Below are positions 40,545 to 64,000 of a DNA stretch of 64,000 bases, in pieces. This DNA comes from Lingula anatina (Eukaryota > Animalia > Brachiopoda), in NCBI GenBank assembly GCA_051362555.1, contig JBPQGU010000016.1, positions 3,100,001 to 3,164,000 on the forward strand, written 5' to 3'. The notes under the pieces were generated by a model that had not been told where the DNA came from, searched no databases, and saw only the letters and a program-made list of their open reading frames with translations. The position numbers and the translations under genes are program-made. The number at the start of each line of letters is the position of its first letter. Position 1 is the stretch's first letter.

Positions 40545-40577
<33 letters not shown>

Positions 40578-40863: not shown

Positions 40864-40895
<32 letters not shown>

Positions 40896-41049: not shown

Positions 41050-41082
<33 letters not shown>

Positions 41083-41512
41083 TTCATCTTCTCCAAGAGT
41101 TCACATCGACGAGAAGGTTTGATACCTCGATGTCGGCTTGCCGTATCCTGGAGCTGAAGCAGGTTCCAAGGGTTGGGCTGTTCGCCCATTAAAACGGGAC
41201 GTTAGCTGGGTTCAAGACGTCGTGAGACAGTCTGGTCCCTATCTGCTGTGGACGTGGGAAATTTGATAGGAGGTCTTTCTAGTACGAGAGGAGCGAAGGG
41301 CTTATACCTCTGGTGTTCCAGTTGTTCTGCCAAGAGCATCGCTGGGTAGCTATGTATAAATCGGATAAGTGCTGAAAGCATCTAAGCACGAAGTCGGCCT
41401 AAAGATTAGATTTCCATATGAGACAACTTATAGACTATGAGTTTGATAGGCTAGAGGTGTAAGTACAGTGATGTATTTAGCTGACTAGTACTAATTGTCC
41501 ACAATTTTTTTA
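38609..41512 (+). rRNA. rrl: 23S rRNA
   Basis: GGATGCCTTGGC, GAACTGAAACATCT, PTC GGATAACAGG/GAGCTG, sarcin-ricin AGTACGAGAGGA; ends approximate. Confidence 0.99.
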
Positions 41513-41592
41513 TTATTTTTTATGTAATGTTATCTATTTAAATTTGAACATTGATTTTTACAGAATTAAAACTTAATTTAATTTTATAATTC

Positions 41593-41700
41593 ACTGGTGT
41601 TGATAGCAAGTTGGTTCCACCTCTTTCCATTCCGAACAGAGAAGTTAAACAATTTAACGGTGAAGATACTGATTTATCGGGAAAATAACAAGATGCCAGT
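41593..41700 (+). rRNA. rrf: 5S rRNA
   Basis: CCATTCCGAAC..GAAGTTAA core; terminal ACTGG/CCAGT helix. Confidence 0.95.
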
Positions 41701-41978
41701 GAATTTTAAGATTGAATTAAGTTTTTTTGTTTAAATAAAAAATTTAATAATAATTTAAAAAAATAATTATTTAAATTTTTAATAGAATATTTAATTTTTT
41801 AAATTATTATTTTTAAAAAAATAATAAAAAATAATAATTTTTAAAAAAATAAATTTAATGTTAATTATATTAATTAATATATAAAATAATTAAAAAAAAT
41901 ATTTTTTAATTTGTGATTTTATTGTTAATTAAAAAAAATATTTTTATATTCTAAAAAAAATCTTTAAAATTTTTTTAT

Positions 41979-42944
41979 ATGACATTAAATATATTATTTC
42001 AAAATAACAATAAATTGATAAAAAAATATTATTTTATAGATTTATCAATACTTTTAACACAATTAGAAGAACAAATATTAACATTTGTTTATCAACCAAT
42101 TTTAGGTTTAAATACAATATCTTTATACAGATTTTTTATTATTCAAAAAAATTTTTCTAAAAAAAATAAAAAAATGTTAAAAACTGATATTTTTAAGTTT
42201 TGTAAATTAAATCAATTAGAATTTGAAGAAAGTTTAGAATGTTTAATAAAATATGATTTATTGATAATTCAAAATTTTGATTTTGAAACTTCAGAAATAA
42301 TATTGAAAAAACCTAAATTTATTAATGAATTATTTAAAGATAATGAATTTTATAAAAAATTAATGAAAAATATTTCTAAAAAATCTTTTGAAAACATATA
42401 TATTAAATTATCAAAAAATTATAATCAAAAAGATGAAAATTTAAATAATGAACAAAAAACAAATTTTAAATTAAAAATTAAAGAAATTAAAAATATAGAA
42501 ATACAAAATAATAAAGAAATTGAAATTAATACAGATTTTTTAAAAGAATTGAATTACAATTTTAAAATAAAGGAATTAAATTTATATAAAAAATTAATTT
42601 TAAATTACAATATACCTAAAAATTGTTTAGAAATTATAATTGATTATGTATTATTTAGAAATTGTGGAAAAAGAATAGAAGTAAATTATATAATTAAATT
42701 AGTTGAAGATCTTAATAATAGATGCATTTTATTTAATAAAGAAAAAATAATAAATCATTTTGTTGAAATATATGAAAATTTATCAGTAAATCATTATTTA
42801 ATTCAAAATCACAAAACACCAAATTGATTAAAAGAAAATTCATTTAATAAAAAAATTTCAATTAATTTATCAAAAAGTGAAAAAAATGATAATAATATTA
42901 ATAATAAAATAAAAAACTTAGTGAAAGAGATATTATATGTTTAA
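41979..42944 (+). CDS. dnaB: Firmicutes-type replication initiation/helicase loader DnaB
   Basis: VYQPILG..ISLY winged-helix motif, IIIDYV...NYI DnaB_2 domain, TPNWL; overlaps dnaI start. Confidence 0.75.
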
Positions 42945-43821
42945 TAAAAAGTTTTTTGAAGCAATTAAAGATAATAAAGAAAAAGAAATATTAAAAAATA
43001 GTTACATTAACAATTTAGAATTTAAAAATTATATAAATAAATTAAATAAATTTAATTATGATTTTTCAAAAATAAATGAATTAAAAAGTTTATTATTAGA
43101 GTATCTTTATTCTTTTAATTTATGTAAAAATGTTGATTCTGAATGTAAACAAACATATAAATTTTTTAGAAAAAAATTAAAATTTTCTAAATATGGAGTA
43201 ACAACAATAGAATTAAAAAGATGTATACATCCAATTTATAATGAAAATTTTATTTTATCTAGTTTTATTGAAAGATCTTTTCCTAAGAATTGAATAATAA
43301 ATAAAGAATTAGATTTTAATATAAATTTAAGTAACACCAAACAAAAAACAATTTCATTTAATGATAATTTTAAAACAAATTCAAAAGATTTTTTAGTTGA
43401 AAATATTTATTTTTACAGTCAAAATAAAGAAGTTTATAGTAAAAAAGCAGCAGTAATAACTTGTATTCATTTAATAAAGAAGAAAAAAATTAAAGTTGCA
43501 TTTATTGATGAAAGAACTTTAATAATGAATATTAAAAATACATGAAAGACAAATTCTAATGATTTGTTTAAAAAATATTTTGAAATTGATTTATTAGTTA
43601 TTGATAATTTTGGGATGGGGAATTGTTCATCAAGTATTAGAGATGATTTTCTTTTTCCATTATTTTCTAAACGTTTTAATGAAAATAAAATAACTTTTAT
43701 TATTTCACCATATACAATGGATGAACTTGAAAATGTATTTCGTTTTTCAAATACAAAATTAGAAGTTTTAAGATCTTCATCATTTGTTGAAGTTATTAAA
43801 GATAATATGAAAAACAAATAA
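42937..43821 (+). CDS. dnaI: Primosomal protein DnaI-like helicase loader
   Basis: Cys/His Zn ligands, LLVIDNFG..SSIRDDFLFPLFSKR, TFIIS; follows dnaB. Confidence 0.72.
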
Positions 43822-43826
43822 TTAAT

Positions 43827-43860
43827 AAAAAAAGACTATAAATTTTTATAGTCTTTTTTT
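43827..43860. terminator. Bidirectional intrinsic terminator between dnaI and rpsD
   Basis: AAAAAAAGACTATAAA-T-TTTTATAGTCTTTTTTT hairpin with A/T tails between convergent genes. Confidence 0.85.
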
Positions 43861-43882
43861 AAAAAAATATATTTATTAAATA

Positions 43883-44482
43883 TTAAATAAATCTGTTGTA
43901 ATATTCATTAACTAAAGCTAAGTTAATATCATTTTTAATATCTTCTTTTTTTGGTTCTTTTATTAATTTAGCAGAAAAATTATTTTTATCTAATTCAATA
44001 AAATTAAAGTTTCCAGCTTTTTTAAATGATTCTTTTATTACTTCTAATTTTTTAATTTTATCTTTTTTAATAGTTACAATATCATTTACTTTTAAAATAA
44101 TTGAAGGAATAGAAGCTTTTTTATTATTTACAAGTATATGATTATGATTTACAAGTTGTCTTGCTGCTTTTCTTGTTGAAACTATACCCATTCTAAAAAC
44201 AATATTGTCTAATCTTTTTTCTAATGTTGCTAAAAGATTATCCATTTTATTACCTTTCATTTTAATAATCTTTTTAAAAAGATTTCTTAAAGGTTTTTCT
44301 GATAAATTATATCTATATTGTAATTTTTGTTTTTCTGATAATTGTAAACCAAAACCTGATTTTCTTGGTTGTCTTACAGGTCTTTTAGTTTTTTTTACTC
44401 TTACAAATTCTTTATGATTTTCTAAAATTGAAAAATTTAATTTTTTTGATTTTTTATAAATTGGTCCTAAGTATCTAGACAT
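43883..44482 (-). CDS. rpsD: 30S ribosomal protein S4
   Basis: MSRYLGP, QLSEKQK, LEKRLDNIVFR, ARQLVNH. Confidence 0.98.
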   Translation of the reverse strand: MSRYLGPIYKKSKKLNFSILENHKEFVRVKKTKRPVRQPRKSGFGLQLSEKQKLQYRYNLSEKPLRNLFKKIIKMKGNKMDNLLATLEKRLDNIVFRMGIVSTRKAARQLVNHNHILVNNKKASIPSIILKVNDIVTIKKDKIKKLEVIKESFKKAGNFNFIELDKNNFSAKLIKEPKKEDIKNDINLALVNEYYNRFI

Positions 44483-44551
44483 AATAATTTTTAATATTTT
44501 ATAATAATATTATAACTTGTTTATATTTAAATATAAATAATTTTTTTAAAT

Positions 44552-46222
44552 ATGTCTGCATTAACTATAACTATTATTTTTTTATTTATTTTTGTTTCAT
44601 TATTAAATTTTTTGTTTTTAATGAAATTAATTTTTGAAATAAATAAATTTAAAAAAATAAATAAATTTATAAATGAATTAGAAATTTTTAAATCTCCATT
44701 TTTTTTAAATAAATTGTTAGAAATTAAAAAATTTTCATTAAAAAATAAAGAATATTTAAAGATTTATAATTATTTATTTTATAAATATATAGATCTTATT
44801 GTTAAAAAAAATACATTAATTATAAAAAGATTTATTGAAGTTTTAAATATTGAAACAAAAAAAGAATCTTTAAATTTAAATATTATTGAAAATTCAAATA
44901 TATTTAATATTTATAATGATTTTGAAAAAAACAATGAATTAATTAATAAATATAGTGAAGAATTAAATATAACTTTTGCAATTGAAAATATTGTTTTTGA
45001 AAGAATAGATTTATTAAATTTAATTTTAGATAAATTATTTGAAGAATTATATAAATTAAATTTAAATTTTGAAATTAATATTGATTTTTTAAAAATTAAA
45101 ATAAAATTAATTTTAGAAAATTTAAGAATTTTTGAATCTGAAATTTATAAACTAAATTATTTTGAAATAAAAAAAAGATTATATGAAATGAATTATGAAG
45201 TAATTCATTTTTCTGAAAAATTAATTATTTGAATAAAAACTATTTCATTATTTGAATTATTAAAAGAAAAACAAAATGAATTATTAAATTTAATTGATTT
45301 AAATAAAAAACAAAATTATATTTCATTAATTCAAAAATTAAATAGAGAATTTCAAAAAACAAATATACAAATTTTTAATAAAATTTGTAATTTTGTCCCA
45401 TTTGAAACAAAAGATATATTATTAAATTTAATTTTTGATTTAGAAAATAAAATATATCAAGTAAAAAATATTGATAATTTAAATAAATTATTTGTTGATT
45501 CATTTGAATTTATAATTGATAAATTTAATATATTACAAACAGAATTTTTAAAATTTAATGATTTAATTCAAAATTTTGAATATAGTAATTTTTTTACTAG
45601 ATTTCAAAAAAATGAATTTAAAAATTTTAAAAAATTATTATTAGAAACTAAAAAAGAAATTGATTTTTTAATTATTGATAAAGAAGAAATAAATTTTAAA
45701 AACTTTTTAAATGAAGATTTATTAAAAATTGAACATTTATCTGATAATTTAATTATTTTGTTTAAAAATTTACCTAGAATGATTAATTTTTTTAATACTG
45801 AAAAAGAAAAAAACAATGAAATGTTTTTAACTTTATTAAATATTGAATCATTATTTTTAAAACCACAATATATTTATATTAAAAATATATTTTTTAATAG
45901 ATTTAATAAAATAATGAAAGATTTTTTGCTTTTTAAAAAAGAACAATTATCATCAAATGATCAACAAATAAATTTAATTTTTAAATACAATAATATTCTT
46001 TCAGAAATTAGAAATTTAAAAAAAGATATAAAAGAATCTATTTTTTTAAAAAGTATTATTGATGAATTATTTGTAAGAGTAAATAAATTTAGATTTAATA
46101 ATGATTTTAGTAGAAATAAAATTTTAAATGCTGAAATTATGTTTATTAAACATGATTTTAAAAATGTTATTTATAAATTAATAGATATTTATGAAAGTGA
46201 AACATTGATTTGAAATAATTAA
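44552..46222 (+). CDS. ezrA: EzrA-like septation ring regulator (556 aa, N-terminal TM + long helical repeats)
   Basis: Length, single N-terminal TM, coiled-coil body, VRVNKFR in place of the QYGNRYR patch, divergent from rpsD as in Firmicutes. Confidence 0.6.
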
Positions 46223-46327
46223 CATTTTATTTTTTAAATTAATAGTAGAACATTATAATGATAATAAGAAATGTAAAATTTATAATAAAAATATATAATT
46301 ATTAATAAATTATTAATAAATTTTTCT

Positions 46328-46401
46328 AGGAGTATAGTTTAATGGTAGAACAATGGTCTTCAAAACCATATGTGCGGGTTCAATTCCTGCTACTCCTGCC
46401 A
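46328..46401 (+). tRNA. tRNA-Trp(TCA), UGA-decoding
   Basis: AGGAGTA/TACTCCT acceptor, ATGGT-CTTCAAA-ACCAT anticodon arm, short variable loop, G73-CCA. Confidence 0.95.
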
Positions 46402-46419
46402 TTTCAAGGTTAAAAATAT

Positions 46420-49113
46420 TTATTTTAATTTAAATCCAAAAACTTCTTCTTCTTTTAAGAATAAATTTTCATCTTTTTCTTTTTCATTATAAATTTGTAA
46501 TTTAGGTTTTTCAATAATTGAAAAATCTACTTGATTTGTTTTTTTTATATTTATTGTATTAAAATAAAGTTTTAGTTTTTCATAATTTTTTATCAAATCT
46601 AAACGTTTTATATTAAAAGAATCTAATGATCCTGAATAAACTAAATTAAAATAAATATTTTTTGTTAAATTATATTTACTCATTCTTACAAAAAAATCAA
46701 ATATATCTTTAAAATTTTTATTTTTTTCTCTTTCTTTTTTTAAATTATTGTAAAAATTAATATTAATTTTTTTAATAATTATTAATGGTAAAAATATTTC
46801 GTTTTTTTTATTAATAAATTTAAAAATATTTCTATTTATACATGGTAGATTTATTAAAATATTATTTTTTTTTAATATTTTTAAATAACAATATGTTTTT
46901 TTATCATCACCAATAACACTGTTTAATAATTGAGTGAAAAATAAATTAAAATTTTTTGTTTTTAAATAAGCCATTCAGTATGAAATAAAAGAATAACCCA
47001 TTGCATGTGAACGATTAAAGCCATATTTAGCAAATTGTATTATTATTTTTCAAATTTTATTTATTAGTTCTTCTGAACGATTATTTTCTTTTGATTTTTT
47101 ATAAAAAATATTTTTAAAAGTGTCAAAAAGAATTTGGTTTTTTTTTGATATTGCTCTTCTTAATATGTCTGATTTTTCTGCAGATAAACCAGAAAAAATT
47201 TGAACCATTTTAATTATTTGTTCTTGAAAAATAGGAATTCCTTGTGTTTGAATTAATATTTCATAAAATTCAGGAATTAAATTTTTATATTTAATATTTT
47301 TATTTTTTCTTTCTAAAAAATCATCAATATATTTTATTGAGCCAGGTCTAAATAAAGAAATTGTTAATGCAATATCTTCTATTTCTTTAGGTTTTATTTT
47401 TTTTATCAATTCAGTCATTCCACTTGATTCTAATTGAAAAATACCTTTAGTTTTTCCTTCTTTAAGTAGTTGAAATGTATTATTATCATTTAATTTGATA
47501 TTTTCTAAATATTTATTTTTTTCATTATTAACATTTAATTTATTTAAAATATTTGAAATTAGTGTTAAATTTCTTAAACCTAAAATATCCATTTTAATTA
47601 AACCAAAATCTTTAATTAATTTCATATCCATTTGAATTATTGTATTTAAACCATCATTTCAAGTACCAGTTAAATAATTTAAATTTATATCTGAAATAAC
47701 TATACCTGCTGCATGAATTCCTTGTTGTCTTGGAAATCCAATAATTTTTTTTACATATTTAAATAGATTTGGAAATTTTTCTTTTTTGTATCTTAATTCT
47801 ATTGAATTTTCTAAATTTTTCTCTAAATTATCAGCATAAAATAAAGATATTTTTTTTGTTATTTCAGATATTTCATTTAAATTTATACCCAAAGCTCTAC
47901 CAACATCTCTTATAGCTAATTTAATTCCTATTTTTTGAAAAGTACTTATTAATCCAACATTATTATTTTGATATTTATTAAATATATATTTAATTACTTC
48001 ATTTCTTTTATTATCTTGAAAATCAGTATCAATATCTGGAAGTTCTATTCTTTCTTTGTTTAAAAAACGTTCAAATAAAAGATTATATTTTATTGGATCT
48101 ATTTTTGTAATATTTAAAAGATAACAAATTAAACTACCAGGTGCAGATCCTCTTCCTGGTCCTACAATAATTTCATTTTTAATTGCAAAATCAATATAAT
48201 TTTTTACTATTAAAAAATAATTAGAAAAGTTTTTATCTTTTATTAATTTTAATTCTTTGATTAATCTTTTTTTATAACTTTTATTAAGTTTTAATTCTTT
48301 TAATTTTTTAAAACAAATATTTTCTAATGTTTTATAAGGATCTAAATTTAAATTATTGTTTAAATTATTTAATCGTAATTTTTTTTCTATTGGTATTTCT
48401 AAATTTATTTTTGATATTAATTCATTTTGATTTTTTATTAGAATTTTTTTTATATTTTCATTGTATTCATTGAATGTTTCAAAAAAAGAAAAAATATTTA
48501 AATTATTTTTTAATATTTTTTCTGGATTTTTTATTTTTTGTAAAATTTTAAAAAATTCTTTTTCTGAATTTTTTAAAACTGTTACAGATTTAAAATCAAT
48601 TAATTTTATTTCTTTATCTTTTAAAATATTTTTAAATAAATTATTTTCTGTTTTTTCATTTTTTCCTCAATATAAATCTTTTAAAAAAATAAGTTCTTTT
48701 TTTATTTCAAAAAAATTATTTAGATTTATATTTTTATTTAATGAAACAATTACAATGATATCTTTGTAATTTTGTTTTAAATATTCTATTTTTATTTCTT
48801 TATTATTTATATTCATTGAAATAGATGATAAATAATTCATATTTTTATATCCATCTATTTTTTTTGGTAATATTGTTATTTCTATATTTCTATTTTTTAT
48901 TTTTATATTTGAAAATGTTGTTCCTATTATTGGTTTTAATGAATTTTGTTTACATAATTTAAAGAATTTATATATACCAAAAACTGATTCTTTAGATAAT
49001 AGTGGTGCAATTTCTATTTTATTTTCTTTTAAAAATTCAATATATTTTTTAAACGATATAGTTGAATTTAAAAAATTATAATATGAATAAACTTTTAATG
49101 GTATTTGTTTCAT
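46420..49113 (-). CDS. dnaE: DNA polymerase III alpha subunit (DnaE type)
   Basis: GPGRGSAPGS, LLFERFLN, PDIDTDF, HAAGIVI, KMDILGL, GIFQLES, YGFNRSHA. Confidence 0.96.
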
Positions 49114-49761
49114 AATAATATTTTAATAAATATTAAATAAATTTATAGATATGTTTTTTATTATTTTCAATAAAAGTAAACATTTAAAAATATAAAATCT
49201 TAAGATTTAAAAATTAAATTTTAAAAATTTATAATGATTATTAAAAAATATTTTTATATATCTAAATTTATAATCAAATAATTTTTATTAAAATATTTTA
49301 TTAATTTAAAGTAACAATTTTTATTATTTATAAATTTTTCCATAAATATTATTATTCATTTTTTTATTCATTTTAAAAATTACTATTTATATTATTTAAT
49401 TTATGGATTATAAAATTAATAAAACAATAAATTAAAATAATAACAATTTTTTAATATATTTTTTTAAATATTTATAAATTTATTTATTTTATAATTATAT
49501 TTTTTTTAATTTTTATATATCTATTATTTTTTTAATTTTTATTTTTTTTTGTTATTATATAAGTAATTAATTTATTTTTTATAATAAATATTTATAAAAT
49601 TTATAATAATAAAAATTTAACTAAAAAATATATTTTATAAACATTATAAAAAACAATAAAAAAAAATTTGTATATTAAAATAAATTAATTATATAATTAT
49701 TTTAAATATTTAAAAAAACTATAAAGTTTTTTAAAATTAAATAAGAGGAGATATAAAAAAA
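49114..49761. promoter_or_regulatory. ~650-bp extremely AT-rich divergent intergenic region; ends in a hairpin (49711-49733) and strong RBS AAGAGGAG
   Basis: Almost no G/C; AAAAAACT-ATAA-AGTTTTTT inverted repeat; RBS at 49743-49750. Confidence 0.5.
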
Positions 49762-51702
49762 ATGAATAGTAAAAATAAAATTAGAGATATTTCTTTAGCT
49801 ATATCTTTATTAGGTATTGTTGGTTTAACAGTTGGACTTATTGTTGTTTCAAATCAAAAAACTCAATCAAGTGAAGACAAATTAACAACTTCATCAAATA
49901 AATTTATGGATTTATTTACTAAAGAAGTATTAAATAGTGATGAAGTTTTATCTAAAATTTCTGATGTTAAATTAATAGATAAAGCAGGTTATGAAAGCAC
50001 AGCAGATGATAATAAAATTAAAGTATTAAAAGAAGAAATTATTGAAGTTGCAAAAACTAAATTAAATGATTTACTTGATTCAAATGTAATTGATAATAAA
50101 GATGAATATACATCAGCTTTAAAATTAATTAAAGATAAATTTACATTAGATATAGTAAAAAATATAATTGGTTATAAAAAAACTGGTACTGATGATGAAA
50201 CTGGTATTTTTAAATCTGAAAAAGAATTTGTTACAAAATATAAAAAATTATTAGAAGATTGATTAAAAGGATTTTCAAATAATCAAAAATTAATGTGATT
50301 AGCAGATGATACAAAAAAAGCATTTAAAAATGATTTAAATACATTAAAAAATAGTTTTCAAGCTTTTGTAGATCGTGCATCATTTGAATATTATGAACTT
50401 GATACTTCAAATGACATTAAAAAAGGTGATGAAGGAATTAAATTAGATGGTACAAAATCTACTAAAGCAGAAAGTGATGATGATTTTGCATCAAGACAAG
50501 CATCATTTGATATATTGAAATTTTTTAAATTAAACAAAATAAAAAATGAAGACAAAAAATACATTAATAAAATTATTCAAGATAATTCATTTAATATTGA
50601 TTTAATTAAAAAATTATATGATGTTAAAACTGCAGATACAAAAGATGATGGTTCAGATTTTACAGTAAAAACAGAATTAACTGGTGATGATAAATGAGAC
50701 AAATTATTTGAAAAAGTTATTAAAAAAGTTTATTTTGAAAATAAAGAAACATTATTTTCTGGAACAGTTGATGCTGGAACATTAGATGCTGCTAATACAA
50801 GTGATGGTAATGCATATAAAATTTCATTTAAAAAAAGTGATTTAGAAAGTGTAAAAACATTAATTAATTCATTTAATGCAACTACAGCATCAATTTCTGG
50901 TACAGATGATGAATTGAGAAAAGATGCTATTAAAAAAGTTTGAGCAAAAGTAAAATTGATTGGTAGTTTTCAAGTTAATACAAATCATGCTAAATATACA
51001 AAATTATTAGGATATTTAACTTCAAAAATAGCTTTAACTAATACAATGGCAGGTACAATTTCAGCAGGTACAATTTCAGCAGAAAAAGTTAAATTATTAT
51101 TAAACTTTGTAATTGGTAAAGAATTATTAGGTTCAATTAAAATACCTACTTTAACAAAACCAGTAGATACAGAAATTGATGCAAATCCTAATGTTGTTGC
51201 AGTAAGAGCAATTTCAGATCAATATGTAACAACAGAAGGTATTGATTTTTCTGATTTTGTTGAAGCTAAAACAAAAATAGATAGTTTAGATGTGTCAGAT
51301 GCTAATGCTGCAAAAACAGTTGCAACAGCTGATAATGCTTCACAAGCAAAAATAAAAGGTGCAGTTTTATTAAAACTTACTTCAATTCCTGGTGGTGTTA
51401 ATAACAAAATTAGAATGATTTTTGCAAATGCTGTTAAAAATCATGCTGATTTTACAGTTGGATCATCAGATAAAAAAGTTCAATTCAATGATGCTATTAA
51501 AACTTCATTAAAATCAGAAATTGATAAATTAATTGAAAACAAAGATATTTCAGATGAATTAAAAGGTTCTATTAATATGAAAATAATTCAAGAAAAATTA
51601 ATGGAAGAATTTAAAAAAATTGATATTGTTTCTACATTAAAATCAGCTGATCTTGAAGGAGAAACTGGTCAATTAGTTGATGAATTAAAAAAAGTTAAAT
51701 AA
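49762..51702 (+). CDS. Membrane-anchored surface protein of unknown function (646 aa)
   Basis: Three ORF fragments join through TGA; N-terminal TM (ISLAISLLGIVGLTVGLIVV) without lipobox Cys; D/T/A/K-rich; strong RBS and terminator. Confidence 0.85.
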
Positions 51703-51723
51703 TTATTTTTTAATTTAATTTTT

Positions 51724-51755
51724 AAAGAACCCTATAATTATAGGGTTCTTTTTTT
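51724..51755 (+). terminator. Intrinsic terminator
   Basis: AAAGAACCCTATA-AT-TATAGGGTTCTTT followed by T-run. Confidence 0.9.
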
Positions 51756-51879
51756 ATTTTTTTAATTTTTATTTTTTTTAAATTTTGTTTTTATTTTTTA
51801 TTAAAATATAAAAAATTTAAATAATTTATTTTAAATTATTTAAAAAAATTTATAAAAAGTAAATTTATGAATTTATTTA

Positions 51880-52945
51880 TGAAATAATTATTTTTTTAAA
51901 TTAAAGTTTTATATAAAATTAATGAATTTAAATAAATAAAATTGATATAAAAATAAATAAGATTATTTTAATAAAATTAAATGTAAATTATTAAATTTGT
52001 AAAAGATAAATGCAATAATTTAATTTATGATTCAGTATTTAAATTAAAAATATAATTAAATTTTGATTAAAAATAAGCCAAATTATTTTAAAAAGTTTTT
52101 GAAAAAGTTTATTTTGAAATTAAAGATATAATTTTTGTTTGAAAAGTTAAAGAAACAATATTATCTAATTTTAACACTTTGGATGGTAAAGAATATATAA
52201 CTTGATTTATATAAAAAGTGATTTAAATGATTTAAAATATTTTTTTAAACTATAAACAACAATCATTTAAAAATTAATATTATGAAAACTATTTAAAATG
52301 TAACTAATGAAAAATTTAAAAAAGATTTATTTAAACAAGTTTGAATAAAAATAAAAATAATTTTAAATTTTAATTTTAATGTTATATTTATATTTAAAAA
52401 TATATTAAATCTAAAAATTATTAGGATATTTAAATTTAAAAGTTAATTTAAAAAATTTAAGTTATTATTTGATATTTTAATAGATTAGAAATTAAAGTTT
52501 TATTAGAAATTTTCATTGATAAAGAATTATATAAAATCAAAAAATAAATTTAAAAAAATTTCAAATAGTTATATAACATTAAAATAGTTATTGAATTATT
52601 TATTTTTATTAGATTTAAATCAATTGATTTAAAAAGTAAATTGTAGATGATTTTTAAAATTATTTATAAAATAAAAATTAATGAGATAATAAATTGTGTT
52701 TTAAAAACAAAAATAAATTGTGTATTTTGAAATAAAAAGAATTTCAATTTTAATTAGTATTGTTTAAAAAAATATAATTATTGCAAATAATATTAAAAAT
52801 CATATTTATTTTACAGTTGTAATTGATAAAAAAATTCAATTCAATACTGATAAATTTATTTAAAAAATTTTTTGATAAATTAATTTAAAAAGATATTAAA
52901 GACAGATTAAAATATTTTATTAATATGAAAATGATTCAAAAATTT
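51880..52945 (+). pseudogene. Decayed tandem paralog of the 3' part (~50510-51600) of the surface protein gene
   Basis: Collinear shared blocks: AAAAAGTTTATTTTGAAA (50723/52102), AAAATTATTAGGATATTTAA (51000/52414), TTAAAAATCAT..ATTTTACAGTTG (51434/52793), TATTAATATGAAAAT (51570/52918); stops and frameshifts throughout. Confidence 0.85.
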
Positions 52946-55900
52946 TTTATGAATGACAGGTGTGGTAGATTGATTTTCATCACATTTCGGAAAAATTGGT
53001 GACGGGTCGTTTTTGGGTGATTTTGAGTGATTTTCATCAGGTCCGCGTACAGCAGATTTCTTCAATTTTGGCCAAAAAGGGAAGAAATTTTTTTTTCTTC
53101 ATTTTAGTGACCGGTAGGTGTGTTGGGTCATTTGTAGTAAGTATAAAGTACTGGAAGAGTGGTTGTGTCAATATTAAGGAAGAAAAAGAGCAAAAACTCT
53201 GGCCACCCCCCCCCCCCCTCCAGATCCTGTTTTCAGCTGTGTTTTTGGCTATCTTTAAAGCTGGAATTGGGGGCTTTAATGAAGTGATCCGGGCGTGTTT
53301 CCACATTTTTTATGAATGACAGGTGTGGTAGATTGATTTTCATCACATTTCGGAAAAATTGGTGACGGGTCGTTTTTGGGTGATTTTGAGTGATTTTCAT
53401 CAGGTCCGCGTACAGCAGATTTCTTCAATTTTGGCCAAAAAGGGAAGAAATTTTTTTTTCTTCATTTTAGTGACCGGTAGGTGTGTTGGGTCATTTGTAG
53501 TAAGTATAAAGTACTGGAAGAGTGGTTGTGTCAATATTAAGGAAGAAAAAGAGCAAAAACTCTGGCCACCCCCCCCCCCCTCCAGATCCTGTTTTCAGCT
53601 GTGTTTTTGGCTATCTTTAAAGCTGGAATTGGGGGCTTTAATGAAGTGATCCGGGCGTGTTTCCACATTTTTTATGAATGACAGGTGTGGTAGATTGATT
53701 TTCATCACATTTCGGAAAAATTGGTGACGGGTCGTTTTTGGGTGATTTTGAGTGATTTTCATCAGGTCCACGTACAGCAGATTTCTTCAATTTTGGCCAA
53801 AAAGGGAAGAAATTTTTTTTTCTTCATTTTAGTGACCGGTAGGTGTGTTGGGTCATTTGTAGTAAGTATAAAGTACTGGAAGAGTGGTTGTGTCAATATT
53901 AAGGAAGAAAAAGAGCAAAAACTCTGGCCACCCCCCCCCCCCTCCAGATCCTGTTTTCAGCTGTGTTTTTGGCTATCTTTAAAGCTGGAATTGGGGGCTT
54001 TAATGAAGTGATCCGGGCGTGTTTCCACATTTTTTATGAATGACAGGTGTGGTAGATTGATTTTCATCACATTTCGGAAAAATTGGTGACGGGTCGTTTT
54101 TGGGTGATTTTGAGTGATTTTCATCAGGTCCGCGTACAGCAGATTTCTTCAATTTTGGCCAAAAAGGGAAGAAATTTTTTTTTCTTCATTTTAGTGACCG
54201 GTAGGTGTGTTGGGTCATTTGTAGTAAGTATAAAGTACTGGAAGAGTGGTTGTGTCAATATTAAGGAAGAAAAAGAGCAAAAACTCTGGCCACCCCCCCC
54301 CCCCCTCCAGATCCTGTTTTCAGCTGTGTTTTTGGCTATCTTTAAAGCTGGAATTGGGGGCTTTAATGAAGTGATCCGGGCGTGTTTCCACATTTTTTAT
54401 GAATGACAGGTGTGGTAGATTGATTTTCATCACATTTCGGAAAAATTGGTGACGGGTCGTTTTTGGGTGATTTTGAGTGATTTTCATCAGGTCCGCGTAC
54501 AGCAGATTTCTTCAATTTTGGCCAAAAAGGGAAGAAATTTTTTTTTCTTCATTTTAGTGACCGGTAGGTGTGTTGGGTCATTTGTAGTAAGTATAAAGTA
54601 CTGGAAGAGTGGTTGTGTCAATATTAAGGAAGAAAAAGAGCAAAAACTCTGGCCACCCCCCCCCCCTCCAGATCCTGTTTTCAGCTGTGTTTTTGGCTAT
54701 CTTTAAAGCTGGAATTGGGGGCTTTAATGAAGTGATCCGGGCGTGTTTCCACATTTTTTATGAATGACAGGTGTGGTAGATTGATTTTCATCACATTTCG
54801 GAAAAATTGGTGACGGGTCGTTTTTGGGTGATTTTGAGTGATTTTCATCAGGTCCGCGTACAGCAGATTTCTTCAATTTTGGCCAAAAAGGGAAGAAATT
54901 TTTTTTTCTTCATTTTAGTGACCGGTAGGTGTGTTGGGTCATTTGTAGTAAGTATAAAGTACTGGAAGAGTGGTTGTGTCAATATTAAGGAAGAAAAAGA
55001 GCAAAAACTCTGGCCACCCCCCCCCCCCTCCAGATCCTGTTTTCAGCTGTGTTTTTGGCTATCTTTAAAGCTGGAATTGGGGGCTTTAATGAAGTGATCC
55101 GGGCGTGTTTCCACATTTTTTATGAATGACAGGTGTGGTAGATTGATTTTCATCACATTTCGGAAAAATTGGTGACGGGTCGTTTTTGGGTGATTTTGAG
55201 TGATTTTCATCAGGTCCGCGTACAGCAGATTTCTTCAATTTTGGCCAAAAAGGGAAGAAATTTTTTTTTCTTCATTTTAGTGACCGGTAGGTGTGTTGGG
55301 TCATTTGTAGTAAGTATAAAGTACTGGAAGAGTGGTTGTGTCAATATTAAGGAAGAAAAAGAGCAAAAACTCTGGCCCCCCCCCCCCCCCTCCAGATCCT
55401 GTTTTCAGCTGTGTTTTTGGCTATCTTTAAAGCTGGAATTGGGGGCTTTAATGAAGTGATCCGGGCGTGTTTCCACATTTTTTATGAATGACAGGTGTGG
55501 TAGATTGATTTTCATCACATTTCGGAAAAATTGGTGACGGGTCGTTTTTGGGTGATTTTGAGTGATTTTCATCAGGTCCGCGTACAGCAGATTTCTTCAA
55601 TTTTGGCCAAAAAGGGAAGAAATTTTTTTTTCTTCATTTTAGTGACCGGTAGGTGTGTTGGGTCATTTGTAGTAAGTATAAAGTACTGGAAGAGTGGTTG
55701 TGTCAATATTAAGGAAGAAAAAGAGCAAAAACTCTGGCCACCCCCCCCCCCTCCAGATCCTGTTTTCAGCTGTGTTTTTGGCTATCTTTAAAGCTGGAAT
55801 TGGGGGCTTTAATGAAGTGATCCGGGCGTGTTTCCACATTTTTTATGAATGACAGGTGTGGTAGATTGATTTTCATCACATTTCGGAAAAATTGGTGACG

Positions 55901-58900
55901 GGTCGTTTTTGGGTGATTTTGAGTGATTTTCATCAGGTCCGCGTACAGCAGATTTCTTCAATTTTGGCCAAAAAGGGAAGAAATTTTTTTTTCTTCATTT
56001 TAGTGACCGGTAGGTGTGTTGGGTCATTTGTAGTAAGTATAAAGTACTGGAAGAGTGGTTGTGTCAATATTAAGGAAGAAAAAGAGCAAAAACTCTGGCC
56101 ACCCCCCCCCCCCTCCAGATCCTGTTTTCAGCTGTGTTTTTGGCTATCTTTAAAGCTGGAATTGGGGGCTTTAATGAAGTGATCCGGGCGTGTTTCCACA
56201 TTTTTTATGAATGACAGGTGTGGTAGATTGATTTTCATCACATTTCGGAAAAATTGGTGACGGGTCGTTTTTGGGTGATTTTGAGTGATTTTCATCAGGT
56301 CCGCGTACAGCAGATTTCTTCAATTTTGGCCAAAAAGGGAAGAAATTTTTTTTTCTTCATTTTAGTGACCGGTAGGTGTGTTGGGTCATTTGTAGTAAGT
56401 ATAAAGTACTGGAAGAGTGGTTGTGTCAATATTAAGGAAGAAAAAGAGCAAAAACTCTGGCCACCCCCCCCCCCCTCCAGATCCTGTTTTCAGCTGTGTT
56501 TTTGGCTATCTTTAAAGCTGGAATTGGGGGCTTTAATGAAGTGATCCGGGCGTGTTTCCACATTTTTTATGAATGACAGGTGTGGTAGATTGATTTTCAT
56601 CACATTTCGGAAAAATTGGTGACGGGTCGTTTTTGGGTGATTTTGAGTGATTTTCATCAGGTCCGCGTACAGCAGATTTCTTCAATTTTGGCCAAAAAGG
56701 GAAGAAATTTTTTTTTCTTCATTTTAGTGACCGGTAGGTGTGTTGGGTCATTTGTAGTAAGTATAAAGTACTGGAAGAGTGGTTGTGTCAATATTAAGGA
56801 AGAAAAAGAGCAAAAACTCTGGCCACCCCCCCCCCCCCTCCAGATCCTGTTTTCAGCTGTGTTTTTGGCTATCTTTAAAGCTGGAATTGGGGGCTTTAAT
56901 GAAGTGATCCGGGCGTGTTTCCACATTTTTTATGAATGACAGGTGTGGTAGATTGATTTTCATCACATTTCGGAAAAATTGGTGACGGGTCGTTTTTGGG
57001 TGATTTTGAGTGATTTTCATCAGGTCCGCGTACAGCAGATTTCTTCAATTTTGGCCAAAAAGGGAAGAAATTTTTTTTTCTTCATTTTAGTGACTGGTAG
57101 GTGTGTTGGGTCATTTGTAGTAAGTATAAAGTACTGGAAGAGTGGTTGTGTCAATATTAAGGAAGAAAAAGAGCAAAAACTCTGGCCACCCCCCCCCCCC
57201 CTCCAGATCCTGTTTTCAGCTGTGTTTTTGGCTATCTTTAAAGCTGGAATTGGGGGCTTTAATGAAGTGATCCGGGCGTGTTTCCACATTTTTTATGAAT
57301 GACAGGTGTGGTAGATTGATTTTCATCACATTTCGGAAAAATTGGTGACGGGTCGTTTTTGGGTGATTTTGAGTGATTTTCATCAGGTCCGCGTACAGCA
57401 GATTTCTTCAATTTTGGCCAAAAAGGGAAGAAATTTTTTTTTCTTCATTTTAGTGACCGGTAGGTGTGTTGGGTCATTTGTAGTAAGTATAAAGTACTGG
57501 AAGAGTGGTTGTGTCAATATTAAGGAAGAAAAAGAGCAAAAACTCTGGCCACCCCCCCCCCCCTCCAGATCCTGTTTTCAGCTGTGTTTTTGGCTATCTT
57601 TAAAGCTGGAATTGGGGGCTTTAATGAAGTGATCCGGGCGTGTTTCCACATTTTTTATGAATGACAGGTGTGGTAGATTGATTTTCATCACATTTCGGAA
57701 AAATTGGTGACGGGTCGTTTTTGGGTGATTTTGAGTGATTTTCATCAGGTCCGCGTACAGCAGATTTCTTCAATTTTGGCCAAAAAGGGAAGAAATTTTT
57801 TTTTCTTCATTTTAGTGACCGGTAGGTGTGTTGGGTCATTTGTAGTAAGTATAAAGTACTGGAAGAGTGGTTGTGTCAATATTAAGGAAGAAAAAGAGCA
57901 AAAACTCTGGCCACCCCCCCCCCCCTCCAGATCCTGTTTTCAGCTGTGTTTTTGGCTATCTTTAAAGCTGGAATTGGGGGCTTTAATGAAGTGATCCGGG
58001 CGTGTTTCCACATTTTTTATGAATGACAGGTGTGGTAGATTGATTTTCATCACATTTCGGAAAAATTGGTGACGGGTCGTTTTTGGGTGATTTTGAGTGA
58101 TTTTCATCAGGTCCGCGTACAGCAGATTTCTTCAATTTTGGCCAAAAAGGGAAGAAATTTTTTTTTCTTCATTTTAGTGACCGGTAGGTGTGTTGGGTCA
58201 TTTGTAGTAAGTATAAAGTACTGGAAGAGTGGTTGTGTCAATATTAAGGAAGAAAAAGAGCAAAAACTCTGGCCACCCCCCCCCCCCCTCCAGATCCTGT
58301 TTTCAGCTGTGTTTTTGGCTATCTTTAAAGCTGGAATTGGGGGCTTTAATGAAGTGATCCGGGCGTGTTTCCACATTTTTTATGAATGACAGGTGTGGTA
58401 GATTGATTTTCATCACATTTCGGAAAAATTGGTGACGGGTCGTTTTTGGGTGATTTTGAGTGATTTTCATCAGGTCCGCGTACAGCAGATTTCTTCAATT
58501 TTGGCCAAAAAGGGAAGAAATTTTTTTTTCTTCATTTTAGTGACCGGTAGGTGTGTTGGGTCATTTGTAGTAAGTATAAAGTACTGGAAGAGTGGTTGTG
58601 TCAATATTAAGGAAGAAAAAGAGCAAAAACTCTGGCCACCCCCCCCCCCCTCCAGATCCTGTTTTCAGCTGTGTTTTTGGCTATCTTTAAAGCTGGAATT
58701 GGGGGCTTTAATGAAGTGATCCGGGCGTGTTTCCACATTTTTTATGAATGACAGGTGTGGTAGATTGATTTTCATCACATTTCGGAAAAATTGGTGACGG
58801 GTCGTTTTTGGGTGATTTTGAGTGATTTTCATCAGGTCCGCGTACAGCAGATTTCTTCAATTTTGGCCAAAAAGGGAAGAAATTTTTTTTTCTTCATTTT

Positions 58901-61900
58901 AGTGACCGGTAGGTGTGTTGGGTCATTTGTAGTAAGTATAAAGTACTGGAAGAGTGGTTGTGTCAATATTAAGGAAGAAAAAGAGCAAAAACTCTGGCCA
59001 CCCCCCCCCCCCTCCAGATCCTGTTTTCAGCTGTGTTTTTGGCTATCTTTAAAGCTGGAATTGGGGGCTTTAATGAAGTGATCCGGGCGTGTTTCCACAT
59101 TTTTTATGAATGACAGGTGTGGTAGATTGATTTTCATCACATTTCGGAAAAATTGGTGACGGGTCGTTTTTGGGTGATTTTGAGTGATTTTCATCAGGTC
59201 CGCGTACAGCAGATTTCTTCAATTTTGGCCAAAAAGGGAAGAAATTTTTTTTTCTTCATTTTAGTGACCGGTAGGTGTGTTGGGTCATTTGTAGTAAGTA
59301 TAAAGTACTGGAAGAGTGGTTGTGTCAATATTAAGGAAGAAAAAGAGCAAAAACTCTGGCCCCCCCCCCCCCCCTCCAGATCCTGTTTTCAGCTGTGTTT
59401 TTGGCTATCTTTAAAGCTGGAATTGGGGGCTTTAATGAAGTGATCCGGGCGTGTTTCCACATTTTTTATGAATGACAGGTGTGGTAGATTGATTTTCATC
59501 ACATTTCGGAAAAATTGGTGACGGGTCGTTTTTGGGTGATTTTGAGTGATTTTCATCAGGTCCGCGTACAGCAGATTTCTTCAATTTTGGCCAAAAAGGG
59601 AAGAAATTTTTTTTTCTTCATTTTAGTGACCGGTAGGTGTGTTGGGTCATTTGTAGTAAGTATAAAGTACTGGAAGAGTGGTTGTGTCAATATTAAGGAA
59701 GAAAAAGAGCAAAAACTCTGGCCACCCCCCCCCCCCTCCAGATCCTGTTTTCAGCTGTGTTTTTGGCTATCTTTAAAGCTGGAATTGGGGGCTTTAATGA
59801 AGTGATCCGGGCGTGTTTCCACATTTTTTATGAATGACAGGTGTGGTAGATTGATTTTCATCACATTTCGGAAAAATTGGTGACGGGTCGTTTTTGGGTG
59901 ATTTTGAGTGATTTTCATCAGGTCCGCGTACAGCAGATTTCTTCAATTTTGGCCAAAAAGGGAAGAAATTTTTTTTTCTTCATTTTAGTGACCGGTTAGG
60001 TGTGTTGGGTCATTTGTAGTAAGTATAAAGTACTGGAAGAGTGGTTGTGTCAATATTAAGGAAGAAAAAGAGCAAAAACTCTGGCCACCCCCCCCCCCCT
60101 CCAGATCCTGTTTTCAGCTGTGTTTTTGGCTATCTTTAAAGCTGGAATTGGGGGCTTTAATGAAGTGATCCGGGCGTGTTTCCACATTTTTTATGAATGA
60201 CAGGTGTGGTAGATTGATTTTCATCACATTTCGGAAAAATTGGTGACGGGTCGTTTTTGGGTGATTTTGAGTGATTTTCATCAGGTCCGCGTACAGCAGA
60301 TTTCTTCAATTTTGGCCAAAAAGGGAAGAAATTTTTTTTTCTTCATTTTAGTGACTGGTAGGTGTGTTGGGTCATTTGTAGTAAGTATAAAGTACTGGAA
60401 GAGTGGTTGTGTCAATATTAAGGAAGAAAAAGAGCAAAAACTCTGGCCACCCCCCCCCCCTCCAGATCCTGTTTTCAGCTGTGTTTTTGGCTATCTTTAA
60501 AGCTGGAATTGGGGGCTTTAATGAAGTGATCCGGGCGTGTTTCCACATTTTTTATGAATGACAGGTGTGGTAGATTGATTTTCATCACATTTCGGAAAAA
60601 TTGGTGACGGGTCGTTTTTGGGTGATTTTGAGTGATTTTCATCAGGTCCGCGTACAGCAGATTTCTTCAATTTTGGCCAAAAAGGGAAGAAATTTTTTTT
60701 TCTTCATTTTAGTGACCGGTAGGTGTGTTGGGTCATTTGTAGTAAGTATAAAGTACTGGAAGAGTGGTTGTGTCAATATTAAGGAAGAAAAAGAGCAAAA
60801 ACTCTGGCCACCCCCCACCCCCCCTCCAGATCCTGTTTTCAGCTGTGTTTTTGGCTATCTTTAAAGCTGGAATTGGGGGCTTTAATGAAGTGATCCGGGC
60901 GTGTTTCCACATTTTTTATGAATGACAGGTGTGGTAGATTGATTTTCATCACATTTCGGAAAAATTGGTGACGGGTCGTTTTTGGGTGATTTTGAGTGAT
61001 TTTCATCAGGTCCGCGTACAGCAGATTTCTTCAATTTTGGCCAAAAAGGGAAGAAATTTTTTTTTCTTCATTTTAGTGACCGGTAGGTGTGTTGGGTCAT
61101 TTGTAGTAAGTATAAAGTACTGGAAGAGTGGTTGTGTCAATATTAAGGAAGAAAAAGAGCAAAAACTCTGGCCCCCCCCCCCCCTCCAGATCCTGTTTTC
61201 AGCTGTGTTTTTGGCTATCTTTAAAGCTGGAATTGGGGGCTTTAATGAAGTGATCCGGGCGTGTTTCCACATTTTTTATGAATGACAGGTGTGGTAGATT
61301 GATTTTCATCACATTTCGGAAAAATTGGTGACGGGTCGTTTTTGGGTGATTTTGAGTGATTTTCATCAGGTCCGCGTACAGCAGATTTCTTCAATTTTGG
61401 CCAAAAAGGGAAGAAATTTTTTTTTCTTCATTTTAGTGACCGGTAGGTGTGTTGGGTCATTTGTAGTAAGTATAAAGTACTGGAAGAGTGGTTGTGTCAA
61501 TATTAAGGAAGAAAAAGAGCAAAAACTCTGGCCACCCCCCCCCCCCTCCAGATCCTGTTTTCAGCTGTGTTTTTGGCTATCTTTAAAGCTGGAATTGGGG
61601 GCTTTAATGAAGTGATCCGGGCGTGTTTCCACATTTTTTATGAATGACAGGTGTGGTAGATTGATTTTCATCACATTTCGGAAAAATTGGTGACGGGTCG
61701 TTTTTGGGTGATTTTGAGTGATTTTCATCAGGTCCGCGTACAGCAGATTTCTTCAATTTTGGCCAAAAAGGGAAGAAATTTTTTTTTCTTCATTTTAGTG
61801 ACCGGTAGGTGTGTTGGGTCATTTGTAGTAAGTATAAAGTACTGGAAGAGTGGTTGTGTCAATATTAAGGAAGAAAAAGAGCAAAAACTCTGGCCACCCC

Positions 61901-64000
61901 CCCCCCCCTCCAGATCCTGTTTTCAGCTGTGTTTTTGGCTATCTTTAAAGCTGGAATTGGGGGCTTTAATGAAGTGATCCGGGCGTGTTTCCACATTTTT
62001 TATGAATGACAGGTGTGGTAGATTGATTTTCATCACATTTCGGAAAAATTGGTGACGGGTCGTTTTTGGGTGATTTTGAGTGATTTTCATCAGGTCCGCG
62101 TACAGCAGATTTCTTCAATTTTGGCCAAAAAGGGAAGAAATTTTTTTTTCTTCATTTTAGTGACCGGTAGGTGTGTTGGGTCATTTGTAGTAAGTATAAA
62201 GTACTGGAAGAGTGGTTGTGTCAATATTAAGGAAGAAAAAGAGCAAAAACTCTGGCCACCCCCCCCCCCCTCCAGATCCTGTTTTCAGCTGTGTTTTTGG
62301 CTATCTTTAAAGCTGGAATTGGGGGCTTTAATGAAGTGATCCGGGCGTGTTTCCACATTTTTTATGAATGACAGGTGTGGTAGATTGATTTTCATCACAT
62401 TTCGGAAAAATTGGTGACGGGTCGTTTTTGGGTGATTTTGAGTGATTTTCATCAGGTCCGCGTACAGCAGATTTCTTCAATTTTGGCCAAAAAGGGAAGA
62501 AATTTTTTTTTCTTCATTTTAGTGACCGGTAGGTGTGTTGGGTCATTTGTAGTAAGTATAAAGTACTGGAAGAGTGGTTGTGTCAATATTAAGGAAGAAA
62601 AAGAGCAAAAACTCTGGCCACCCCACCCCCCCCTCCAGATCCTGTTTTCAGCTGTGTTTTTGGCTATCTTTAAAGCTGGAATTGGGGGCTTTAATGAAGT
62701 GATCCGGGCGTGTTTCCACATTTTTTATGAATGACAGGTGTGGTAGATTGATTTTCATCACATTTCGGAAAAATTGGTGACGGGTCGTTTTTGGGTGATT
62801 TTGAGTGATTTTCATCAGGTCCGCGTACAGCAGATTTCTTCAATTTTGGCCAAAAAGGGAAGAAATTTTTTTTTCTTCATTTTAGTGACCGGTAGGTGTG
62901 TTGGGTCATTTGTAGTAAGTATAAAGTACTGGAAGAGTGGTTGTGTCAATATTAAGGAAGAAAAAGAGCAAAAACTCTGGCCACCCCCCCCCCCTCCAGA
63001 TCCTGTTTTCAGCTGTGTTTTTGGCTATCTTTAAAGCTGGAATTGGGGGCTTTAATGAAGTGATCCGGGCGTGTTTCCACATTTTTTATGAATGACAGGT
63101 GTGGTAGATTGATTTTCATCACATTTCGGAAAAATTGGTGACGGGTCGTTTTTGGGTGATTTTGAGTGATTTTCATCAGGTCCGCGTACAGCAGATTTCT
63201 TCAATTTTGGCCAAAAAGGGAAGAAATTTTTTTTTCTTCATTTTAGTGACCGGTAGGTGTGTTGGGTCATTTGTAGTAAGTATAAAGTACTGGAAGAGTG
63301 GTTGTGTCAATATTAAGGAAGAAAAAGAGCAAAAACTCTGGCCACCCCACCCCCCCCTCCAGATCCTGTTTTCAGCTGTGTTTTTGGCTATCTTTAAAGC
63401 TGGAATTGGGGGCTTTAATGAAGTGATCCGGGCGTGTTTCCACATTTTTTATGAATGACAGGTGTGGTAGATTGATTTTCATCACATTTCGGAAAAATTG
63501 GTGACGGGTCGTTTTTGGGTGATTTTGAGTGATTTTCATCAGGTCCGCGTACAGCAGATTTCTTCAATTTTGGCCAAAAAGGGAAGAAATTTTTTTTTCT
63601 TCATTTTAGTGACCGGTAGGTGTGTTGGGTCATTTGTAGTAAGTATAAAGTACTGGAAGAGTGGTTGTGTCAATATTAAGGAAGAAAAAGAGCAAAAACT
63701 CTGGCCACCCCCCCCCCCCTCCAGATCCTGTTTTCAGCTGTGTTTTTGGCTATCTTTAAAGCTGGAATTGGGGGCTTTAATGAAGTGATCCGGGCGTGTT
63801 TCCACATTTTTTATGAATGACAGGTGTGGTAGATTGATTTTCATCACATTTCGGAAAAATTGGTGACGGGTCGTTTTTGGGTGATTTTGAGTGATTTTCA
63901 TCAGGTCCGCGTACAGCAGATTTCTTCAATTTTGGCCAAAAAGGGAAGAAATTTTTTTTTCTTCATTTTAGTGACCGGTAGGTGTGTTGGGTCATTTGTA
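52942..64000. repeat. Tandem satellite-like array, ~362-bp unit (360-364), 30 full copies plus a partial, running off the window
   Basis: Same unit recurs at 52996, 53359, 53721 ... 63498, 63860; length differences almost all in a poly-C tract; no spacers. Confidence 0.98.

What the first reader, a model, noticed from the sequence alone, without database searches (positions are those of the whole stretch)
52880..53050. Abrupt fusion of an intact Mollicute chromosome to a satellite-like array
Seen: composition jumps from very AT-rich to about 40% GC within a few bases, with no gap, IS end or target duplication. The join lies in a T-run (..ATGATTCAAAA/TTTTTTATGAATGACAGG) that the repeat unit also has (CCACATTTTTTATGAATG). 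It cuts the pseudogene about 100 bp before the point where its paralog ends. Known: multi-kb arrays of this unit size are typical of eukaryotes and not of reduced bacteria, and endosymbiont-to-host insertions (e.g. Wolbachia) often lie in repetitive DNA. Inference: either a symbiont/host assembly chimera, which I think more likely because the bacterial genes look intact, or a very recent large Mollicute-to-host integration, which would be notable.
Basis: partly seen in the sequence, partly recalled or inferred. Interest (0 to 1): 0.85.

Follow-up and report, generated by a model that had tools for sequence, protein, structure and literature searches.

The report
Symbiont chromosome misjoined to host satellite
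A 53-kb piece of an AT-rich, wall-less bacterium's chromosome runs straight into a tandem DNA repeat that is extremely abundant in sequencing runs of its presumed host, and the join is most likely a sequencing or assembly artefact, not a real insertion of bacterial DNA into the host genome.

Summary
The junction is in the window as described. Bases 1-52,941 are an intact table-4 Mollicute-like chromosome stretch (19.7% GC). From 52,942 a 362-bp array (41% GC, 30.5 copies, 99% alike) runs to the window end. The join cuts a decayed gene copy 108 bases before its paralog's end. In 4 of 4 public runs laid (3 studies, all labelled organism A) the repeat is a heterogeneous family at summed depth 4.5e4-6e6, so it is host satellite DNA. 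The bacterial DNA behaves like a separate low-titre genome. Its one visible contig has depth 4.3, against 34 and 116 for chance-matching contigs of the same run, and four runs of one sample hold 0.53, 0.33, 0.23 and 0.12 of the query words. No listed contig bridges the join, but filtering and truncated tables leave that test open, and the source long reads were not seen. Best reading: a chimeric read or misjoin (about 0.85). A private recent integration is not excluded (about 0.08). The real by-product is an apparently undescribed Mollicute lineage that recurs with this host in three studies.

The parts
1..52941 (.). Stretch of a Mollicute-like bacterial chromosome, table 4, 19.7% GC, intact housekeeping genes (atp operon, secA, leuS, asnS, ligA, gatAB, dnaE, rpsD and others)
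   Evidence: 34 of 41 ORFs scanned have Pfam hits; listed genes and RNAs cover 48,252 of the first 51,702 bases
36919..41701 (+). 16S-23S-5S rRNA operon; 16S and 23S and 5S each match their model end to end
49762..51702 (+). 646-aa ORF with an N-terminal hydrophobic segment; likely a lineage-specific membrane-anchored surface protein (inferred)
   Evidence: no Pfam hit; none of 7,989 scored candidates at E<=0.001
51892..52941 (+). Decayed copy (pseudogene) of the 3' part of the 646-aa ORF, 10.5% GC against 24.5% for the paralogous stretch, cut by the join
52942..52953 (.). Junction; the breakpoint lies at or within about 12 bases to the right of 52,942
52942..64000 (.). Tandem array of a 362-bp unit, 30.5 copies to the window end; a homogeneous minor subfamily of a very abundant satellite family in runs labelled organism A

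Best explanation
The join is most likely an artefact: a piece of a bacterial associate's chromosome was probably fused to its host's satellite DNA in one chimeric molecule or by the assembler. Shown: the left side is an intact bacterial chromosome stretch, and the right side belongs to a repeat family at very high depth in every run laid. Inferred: (1) organism A is a eukaryotic host, from 285-795 million letters of contigs per large run and the satellite load; (2) the bacterium is a separate genome at low and variable titre; (3) in the library behind this window a bacterial fragment was joined to a satellite fragment, by ligation, by template switching over 1-12 shared bases, or as two molecules read as one; (4) because bacterial coverage was thin, that molecule was not outvoted and the contig went on into the array. 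A very abundant satellite is a likely partner for a random join.
For: Repeat side: summed depth 4.5e4 to 6.1e6 in the bins wholly inside the unit in 4 of 4 runs, with 415 to 19,808 contigs laid per run at 88-100% likeness. Bacterial side: one exact contig, X2 record 9, 156 letters long, laid on 52,640-52,748 with 0 differences, at depth 4.3. That is 8 and 27 times below two chance-matching contigs of the same run (34 and 116) and 2e5 to 1.4e6 times below the repeat. Runs X3, X5, X6 and X9 of one sample hold 0.53, 0.33, 0.23 and 0.12 of the words, although each assembled 285-332 million letters. The repeat accounts for about 0.12 of the query, so the bacterial share runs from at least 0.46 down to 0. 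A strain difference would give equal shares within one sample; low depth gives unequal ones. Loose ends before 52,942 are the unit's own preceding letters in all 4 runs (14, 144, 17 and 101 contigs), and none of the 32 listed pieces bridges the join. Genes up to 51,702 are intact. A single-copy nuclear insertion is expected at host single-copy depth (PMC5429809, passages). Ligation, template-switch and follow-on chimeras are documented sources of false junctions (10.64898/2026.06.24.734375, passages).
Against: The reads behind the window were not seen, and no bacterial continuation past 52,941 was found (0 matches; one search shows none). X1 holds 0.95 of the words but shows no bacterial contig, where the tool warns that a filter leaves records out, so its depth and any junction contig are unknown. 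164 loose-end rows and 25,377 pieces were not shown. X4 has unexplained depth of 21.9 and 82.1 in the two bins at 52,887-52,924, just left of the join. I read it as a chance AT-rich match, since X4 holds only 0.37 of the words and has no cover at 52,716-52,829, but the piece is not listed. Contig depth is a coarse measure (tool's caveat), the contigs that I take as host-level are unidentified, and very AT-rich DNA can drop out of amplified short-read libraries (own knowledge). None of the other runs can exclude an insertion private to the assembled individual.
Confidence: 0.85

Rival explanations
1. A real, very recent integration of at least 53 kb of the Mollicute chromosome into or beside a host satellite array, private to the assembled individual or lineage, made by end joining over a few shared bases.
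For: Sharp join with 1 to about 12 possibly shared bases. The bacterium recurs with organism A in three studies, so donor and host are in lasting contact. Mollicute-to-insect transfers exist: Spiroplasma/Mycoplasma donors for 37 of 497 loci in ants (PMC13320244, passages). X1 holds 0.95 of the words and its depth could not be seen. A very young insertion would still have intact genes.
Against: Bacterial depth of 4.3 in X2, a sample of the same study as X1. No bridging contig listed in 4 runs. No decay or host insertions in 51.7 kb of genes. A free low-titre bacterium already accounts for the bacterial sequence.
Confidence: 0.08
2. An older insertion fixed in the host species, with patchy recovery caused by loss of very AT-rich DNA from short-read libraries.
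For: Bacterial words are found in samples from 2015, 2018 and 2025. The pseudogene is only 10.5% GC.
Against: About half of the bacterial part of the query is gene body at about 24% GC, yet X9 and X6 hold a minimum of 0 and 0.11 of the bacterial words while assembling 285-323 million letters. X11, also organism A, holds 0.03 (the tool notes this is no proof of absence). The genes are intact under table 4 with a full rRNA operon.
Confidence: 0.03
3. The array lies in the bacterial chromosome, either as a captured host satellite or as a bacterial repeat of its own.
For: It interrupts a dispensable pseudogene, where an insertion would be tolerated. The array is homogeneous: 13 of 30 whole units are identical.
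Against: The repeat is 2e5 to 1.4e6 times deeper than the bacterial contig in X2, so it cannot originate from the bacterium. The longest word shared by the unit and the bacterial side is 14 AT-rich bases. No match in JGI metagenomes, IMG/VR, plasmids or phages. An array of 11 kb or more at 41% GC would be out of place in a 20% GC reduced genome (inference).
Confidence: 0.04

Closest known systems
Chimeric junction artefacts of sequencing libraries (intermolecular ligation, PCR template switching, nanopore follow-on reads; 10.64898/2026.06.24.734375, passages)
   Same: One sharp join of two unrelated DNAs from the same sample, with no support seen in other runs.
   Different: The read-level evidence (read count, platform, quality dip at the join) could not be examined, so the class of artefact is not known.
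Nuclear Wolbachia transfers (nuwts; PMC5429809, passages). Near-whole-genome cases in Drosophila ananassae and the Armadillidium f element are recalled, not read.
   Same: Symbiont DNA adjacent to host DNA in an assembly; tested by depth and junction PCR.
   Different: Nuwts sit at host single-copy depth or multiples of it and accumulate mutations. Here the visible bacterial contig is 8-27 times below presumed host contigs and the genes are intact.
Mollicute-derived horizontal transfers in ants (37 of 497 loci from Spiroplasma/Mycoplasma, e.g. murQ in Camponotini; PMC13320244, passages)
   Same: Shows that Mollicute DNA can enter animal genomes.
   Different: The examples read are single genes, with synteny, expression or PCR support. 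This would be at least 53 kb with an rRNA operon and has no such support.
Candidatus Mariplasma lunae and Ca. Spiroplasma holothuricola (about 0.4 Mb Mollicutes of marine invertebrates, sister to Entomoplasmatales; PMC11025843, passages)
   Same: A reduced Mollicute recovered from host sequencing data. The window's SecA groups 100/100 with eight unnamed proteins, several of whose clusters lie on 0.40-0.46 Mb contigs. Its AsnS falls in a 10-row set with Spiroplasma, Mesoplasma and M. mycoides (99).
   Different: No named member was in either tree, so this is a lead only. Identity is 69-72% to the nearest unnamed protein and 47-53% to the rest of the SecA clade.
Eukaryotic satellite DNA with units of about 350-370 bp (class recalled, e.g. 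the Drosophila 359-bp family)
   Same: Head-to-tail array, homogeneous locally and heterogeneous across the genome.
   Different: The unit was not compared with any named satellite; three short motifs of it were found in 0 papers.

Membership tests
Mollicutes (UGA = Trp lineages) | UGA read as Trp, with a tRNA bearing anticodon UCA | tested here: met
   Long conserved ORFs need table 4, e.g. LeuS with 19 recoded steps; tRNA with anticodon TCA at 46,328-46,401 (ARAGORN calls it SeC, Trp is my inference)
Mollicutes (UGA = Trp lineages) | Low GC, dense genome of Bacillota descent | tested here: met
   19.7% GC; 93% covered by listed genes; best named hits Mesoplasma, M. mycoides, Spiroplasma for AsnS and Erysipelothrix for SecA
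Mollicutes (UGA = Trp lineages) | No cell-wall synthesis genes in the genome | not testable with these tools
   Only 53 kb is held; none among the 41 ORFs scanned
Mariplasma / S. holothuricola clade | Groups with named members in a marker tree | tested here: inconclusive
   No named member among the hits; trees show an unnamed clade, with a composition-bias warning
Eukaryotic satellite DNA | Long head-to-tail array of one unit | tested here: met
Eukaryotic satellite DNA | Very high abundance and many variants in host DNA | tested here: met
   4 of 4 runs; the window's allele makes up 1-46% of depth at two diagnostic places
Eukaryotic satellite DNA | Located on host chromosomes | not testable with these tools
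   No host assembly held; needs FISH or a chromosome-level assembly
Nuclear symbiont insertion (nuwt-like) | Junction spanned by independent molecules | tested here: inconclusive
   None of 32 listed pieces bridges it, but records are filtered and tables cut
Nuclear symbiont insertion (nuwt-like) | Depth at host single-copy level | tested here: not met
   X2: 4.3 against 34 and 116; patchy shares within sample S3; not seen for X1 or for the source individual
Nuclear symbiont insertion (nuwt-like) | Decay of transferred genes | tested here: not met
   Genes intact; uninformative for a very young insertion

The most novel reading that the evidence does not exclude
A real, very recent integration of at least 53 kb of a Mollicute chromosome, rRNA operon included, into a host satellite array, carried by the assembled individual and caught while the free bacterium is still present. 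It would be a Mollicute counterpart of the large Wolbachia insertions.
Probability: 0.08. Interest if true: 0.75.

Novelty: not a real feature. Interest (0 to 1): 0.15.

Why it matters
As an artefact it matters for curation: the contig should be broken at 52,942, or the host assembly carries bacterial genes and a false gene transfer may be reported. The bacterial half is real and appears undescribed (no named SecA above 45% among the best 120 hits), and it recurs with one host label in three studies, so it is a candidate persistent symbiont worth assembling. If the join were real, it would be a chromosome-scale Mollicute-to-host transfer, of which my searches (listings only) showed no description.

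Tried and rejected
No whole genome is held. 16S against 401 genomes of the class of G001 (399 scored): best about 72-75% over long stretches, uninformative, and the class may not hold Mollicutes. Unit motif: 0 matches in JGI metagenomes and IMG/VR; unit against plasmids and phages: no match; Rfam: nothing at gathering score in the array, only E 0.78 chance hits. Bacterial 28-mer just left of the join: 0 matches in JGI metagenomes, so the unjoined allele was not found. ORFs of 80-157 aa in the array are short, vary with the C-run length and were not pursued. No clear internal subunit in the unit (best self-shift 121 of 362 against a mean of 95). Unit variants (C-run length in most cases, T9 run fixed in 30 of 30) do not tell single-read error from real variation. 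RIP-like mutation was rejected for the pseudogene: G and C go to both A and T and only one copy is decayed. The 646-aa protein has no relatives found; no structure or language-model search of it was obtained. Cluster look-up gave no names for 8 relatives. Supplements of PMC11025843 were not read; they may hold GC content and sequences that would test the Mariplasma lead. Earlier-findings look-ups returned nothing that bears on this.

Full report
Observation. The window has two parts. Bases 1-52,941 are 19.7% GC, with the rRNA operon as the only high-GC block. From 52,942 to the end lies a tandem array of period 362, 30.5 copies, 99% matches. The 30 whole units are 360-364 bases long, 13 of 30 are identical, and most differences lie in one C-run. 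GC in 50-base bins steps from 0.14 to 0.32 to 0.40. The window agrees with the unit exactly back to 52,942 and at 6 of the next 30 bases further left.

The left side. Under table 4 it is a dense bacterial chromosome: 34 of 41 ORFs scanned have Pfam hits, listed genes and RNAs cover 48,252 of the first 51,702 bases, 16S, 23S and 5S match their models end to end, and a tRNA with anticodon TCA is present. The best named AsnS hits are Mesoplasma, Mycoplasma mycoides and Spiroplasma at 48-51%. The best named SecA hits are Erysipelothrix and other Bacilli at 44-45%. One unnamed Logan protein is closer in each search (72% and 69%). A SecA tree of the window and 23 of the 120 hits groups the window 100/100 with eight unnamed proteins, with a composition warning and no named Mollicute among the rows. 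Several of those clusters lie on contigs of 0.40-0.46 Mb. An AsnS tree of the window and 26 of the 120 hits puts it in a 10-row set with Entomoplasmatales (99). This recalls the 0.4-Mb Ca. Mariplasma lunae, described as sister to Entomoplasmatales (PMC11025843, passages), but membership was not tested.

The cut gene. The 646-aa ORF at 49,762-51,702 has no Pfam hit or homolog. It is followed by a decayed copy of its 3' part (about 70% identical, stops and frameshifts, 10.5% against 24.5% GC). The join falls 108 bases before the paralog's end. In register with the paralog, 21 of 23 bases match left of the join and 7 of 12 match over 52,942-52,953, including an ATG. The true breakpoint may therefore lie up to about 12 bases to the right, but a shared T-run is not shown; the T-run is the repeat's own.

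Public runs. A search with 50,500-53,310 listed 11 runs: 10 hold some of the stretch, from 3 studies; 10 of the 11 are labelled organism A and one organism B. Of the query's 31-mers 86.7% are bacterial, 1.1% cross the join and 12.2% are repeat. Shares were X1 0.95, X2 0.75, X3 0.53, X4 0.37, X5 0.33, X6 0.23, X7 0.16, X8 0.15, X9 0.12, X10 0.08, X11 0.03. X3, X5, X6 and X9 are one sample, each with 285-332 million letters of contigs, yet their minimum bacterial shares are 0.46, 0.23, 0.11 and 0. A nuclear insertion carried by that sample should be recovered along with the rest of the genome (expectation as in PMC5429809, passages). Unequal recovery within one sample is what DNA near the depth threshold gives.

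I laid 4 of the 11 runs (X1-X4) on 561 bases across the join; depth over the bacterial genes further left was not seen. On the repeat, summed depth is 4.5e4 to 6.1e6 in all four runs, from 415 to 19,808 contigs, with many shared variants. The window's allele makes up 1-38% of depth at 52,984 and 3-46% at 53,104, so the array is a minor, homogeneous subfamily of a large family. On the bacterial side one exact contig is shown: X2 record 9, laid on 52,640-52,748 with no difference, depth 4.3. Short patches of 33-36 letters resolve to depths of 102 and 39 in X1, 116 and 34 in X2, 48 in X3 and 98 in X4; I read them as chance matches to AT-rich host DNA. The bacterial contig in X2 is thus 8-27 times below them and over 2e5 times below the repeat. 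Loose ends before 52,942 are the unit's own preceding letters in all four runs, and none of the 32 listed pieces bridges the join.

Against my reading. The tool filters records, so the absence of a bacterial contig in X1, which holds 0.95 of the words, proves nothing, and X1's depth is unknown. 164 loose-end rows and 25,377 pieces were not shown. X4 has depth 21.9 and 82.1 in the two bins just left of the join; since X4 holds only 0.37 of the words and has no cover at 52,716-52,829, a host-depth junction contig is unlikely, but I could not see the piece. Contig depth is no copy number, and AT-rich DNA can drop out of amplified libraries (own knowledge). The unjoined bacterial allele was not found. 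Other samples cannot exclude an insertion private to the assembled individual.

Mechanism. Shown: an intact bacterial stretch, a satellite at very high abundance, low and uneven bacterial recovery in the runs where it can be judged. Inferred: a low-titre bacterial associate was sequenced with its host; one molecule joined a bacterial fragment to a satellite fragment (ligation, template switch or follow-on read, classes described in 10.64898/2026.06.24.734375, passages), or the assembler did so; with thin bacterial coverage it was not outvoted. I put this at 0.85, a private recent integration at 0.08, an array inside the bacterial chromosome at 0.04 and an old fixed insertion at 0.03.

Comparison and novelty. 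Mollicute genes do enter animal genomes (37 of 497 loci in ants, PMC13320244, passages), and large Wolbachia insertions are known (recalled). Listings showed no chromosome-scale Mollicute insertion; these searches cover open-licence papers only. Three motifs of the unit were found in 0 papers. The feature fails the depth test for a nuclear insertion where it could be tested and is inconclusive on spanning molecules. Verdict: probably not a real feature, interest 0.15; the undescribed bacterium is the part worth keeping.

Noticed in passing
window 1-52,941: Apparently undescribed Mollicute-like lineage, 19.7% GC. Nearest proteins are unnamed (69-72%), the next clade 47-53% with several contigs of 0.40-0.46 Mb. 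Its words occur in runs labelled organism A from 2015, 2018 and 2025, which suggests a persistent associate.
   Followed up: partly
window 49,762-51,702: 646-aa orphan ORF with an N-terminal hydrophobic segment and a short internal 15-bp tandem repeat; a hairpin followed by a T-run is visible at about 51,724-51,755; a decayed copy follows in tandem, as in variable surface-protein loci (inference).
   Followed up: partly
window 46,328-46,401: tRNA called SeC by ARAGORN with anticodon TCA; most likely the tRNA-Trp that reads UGA.
   Followed up: no
window 27,092-29,386: NAD-dependent DNA ligase of 764 aa whose adenylation domain matches Pfam in two stretches, with what looks like an in-frame insert of roughly 100 residues between them.
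   Followed up: no
window 15,367-16,470: Lgt of 367 aa matches only positions 9-181 of the 240-position model in its best stretch and seems to carry a long Lys/Asn-rich insert in the C-terminal half.
   Followed up: no
window 49,114-49,761: 648-base intergenic stretch of only 5.2% GC between dnaE and the orphan ORF.
   Followed up: no
window 18,706-19,290 and 32,561-34,802: The reduced genome keeps a diadenylate cyclase (DAC domain) and a TrkA/TrkH potassium uptake pair, the two trk genes lying divergently.
   Followed up: no
window 52,942-53,200 (tables 3 and 7): The satellite family has a majority variant that differs from the window's array at many places; the window's subfamily is about 1-3% of depth in X3 and 13-46% in X1, X2 and X4 at two places, so subfamily amounts differ between samples.
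   Followed up: partly
window 7,315-7,639: 73-aa ORF below the 80-aa listing limit that reads like ATP synthase subunit c, completing the atp operon (name by eye, not scanned).
   Followed up: no
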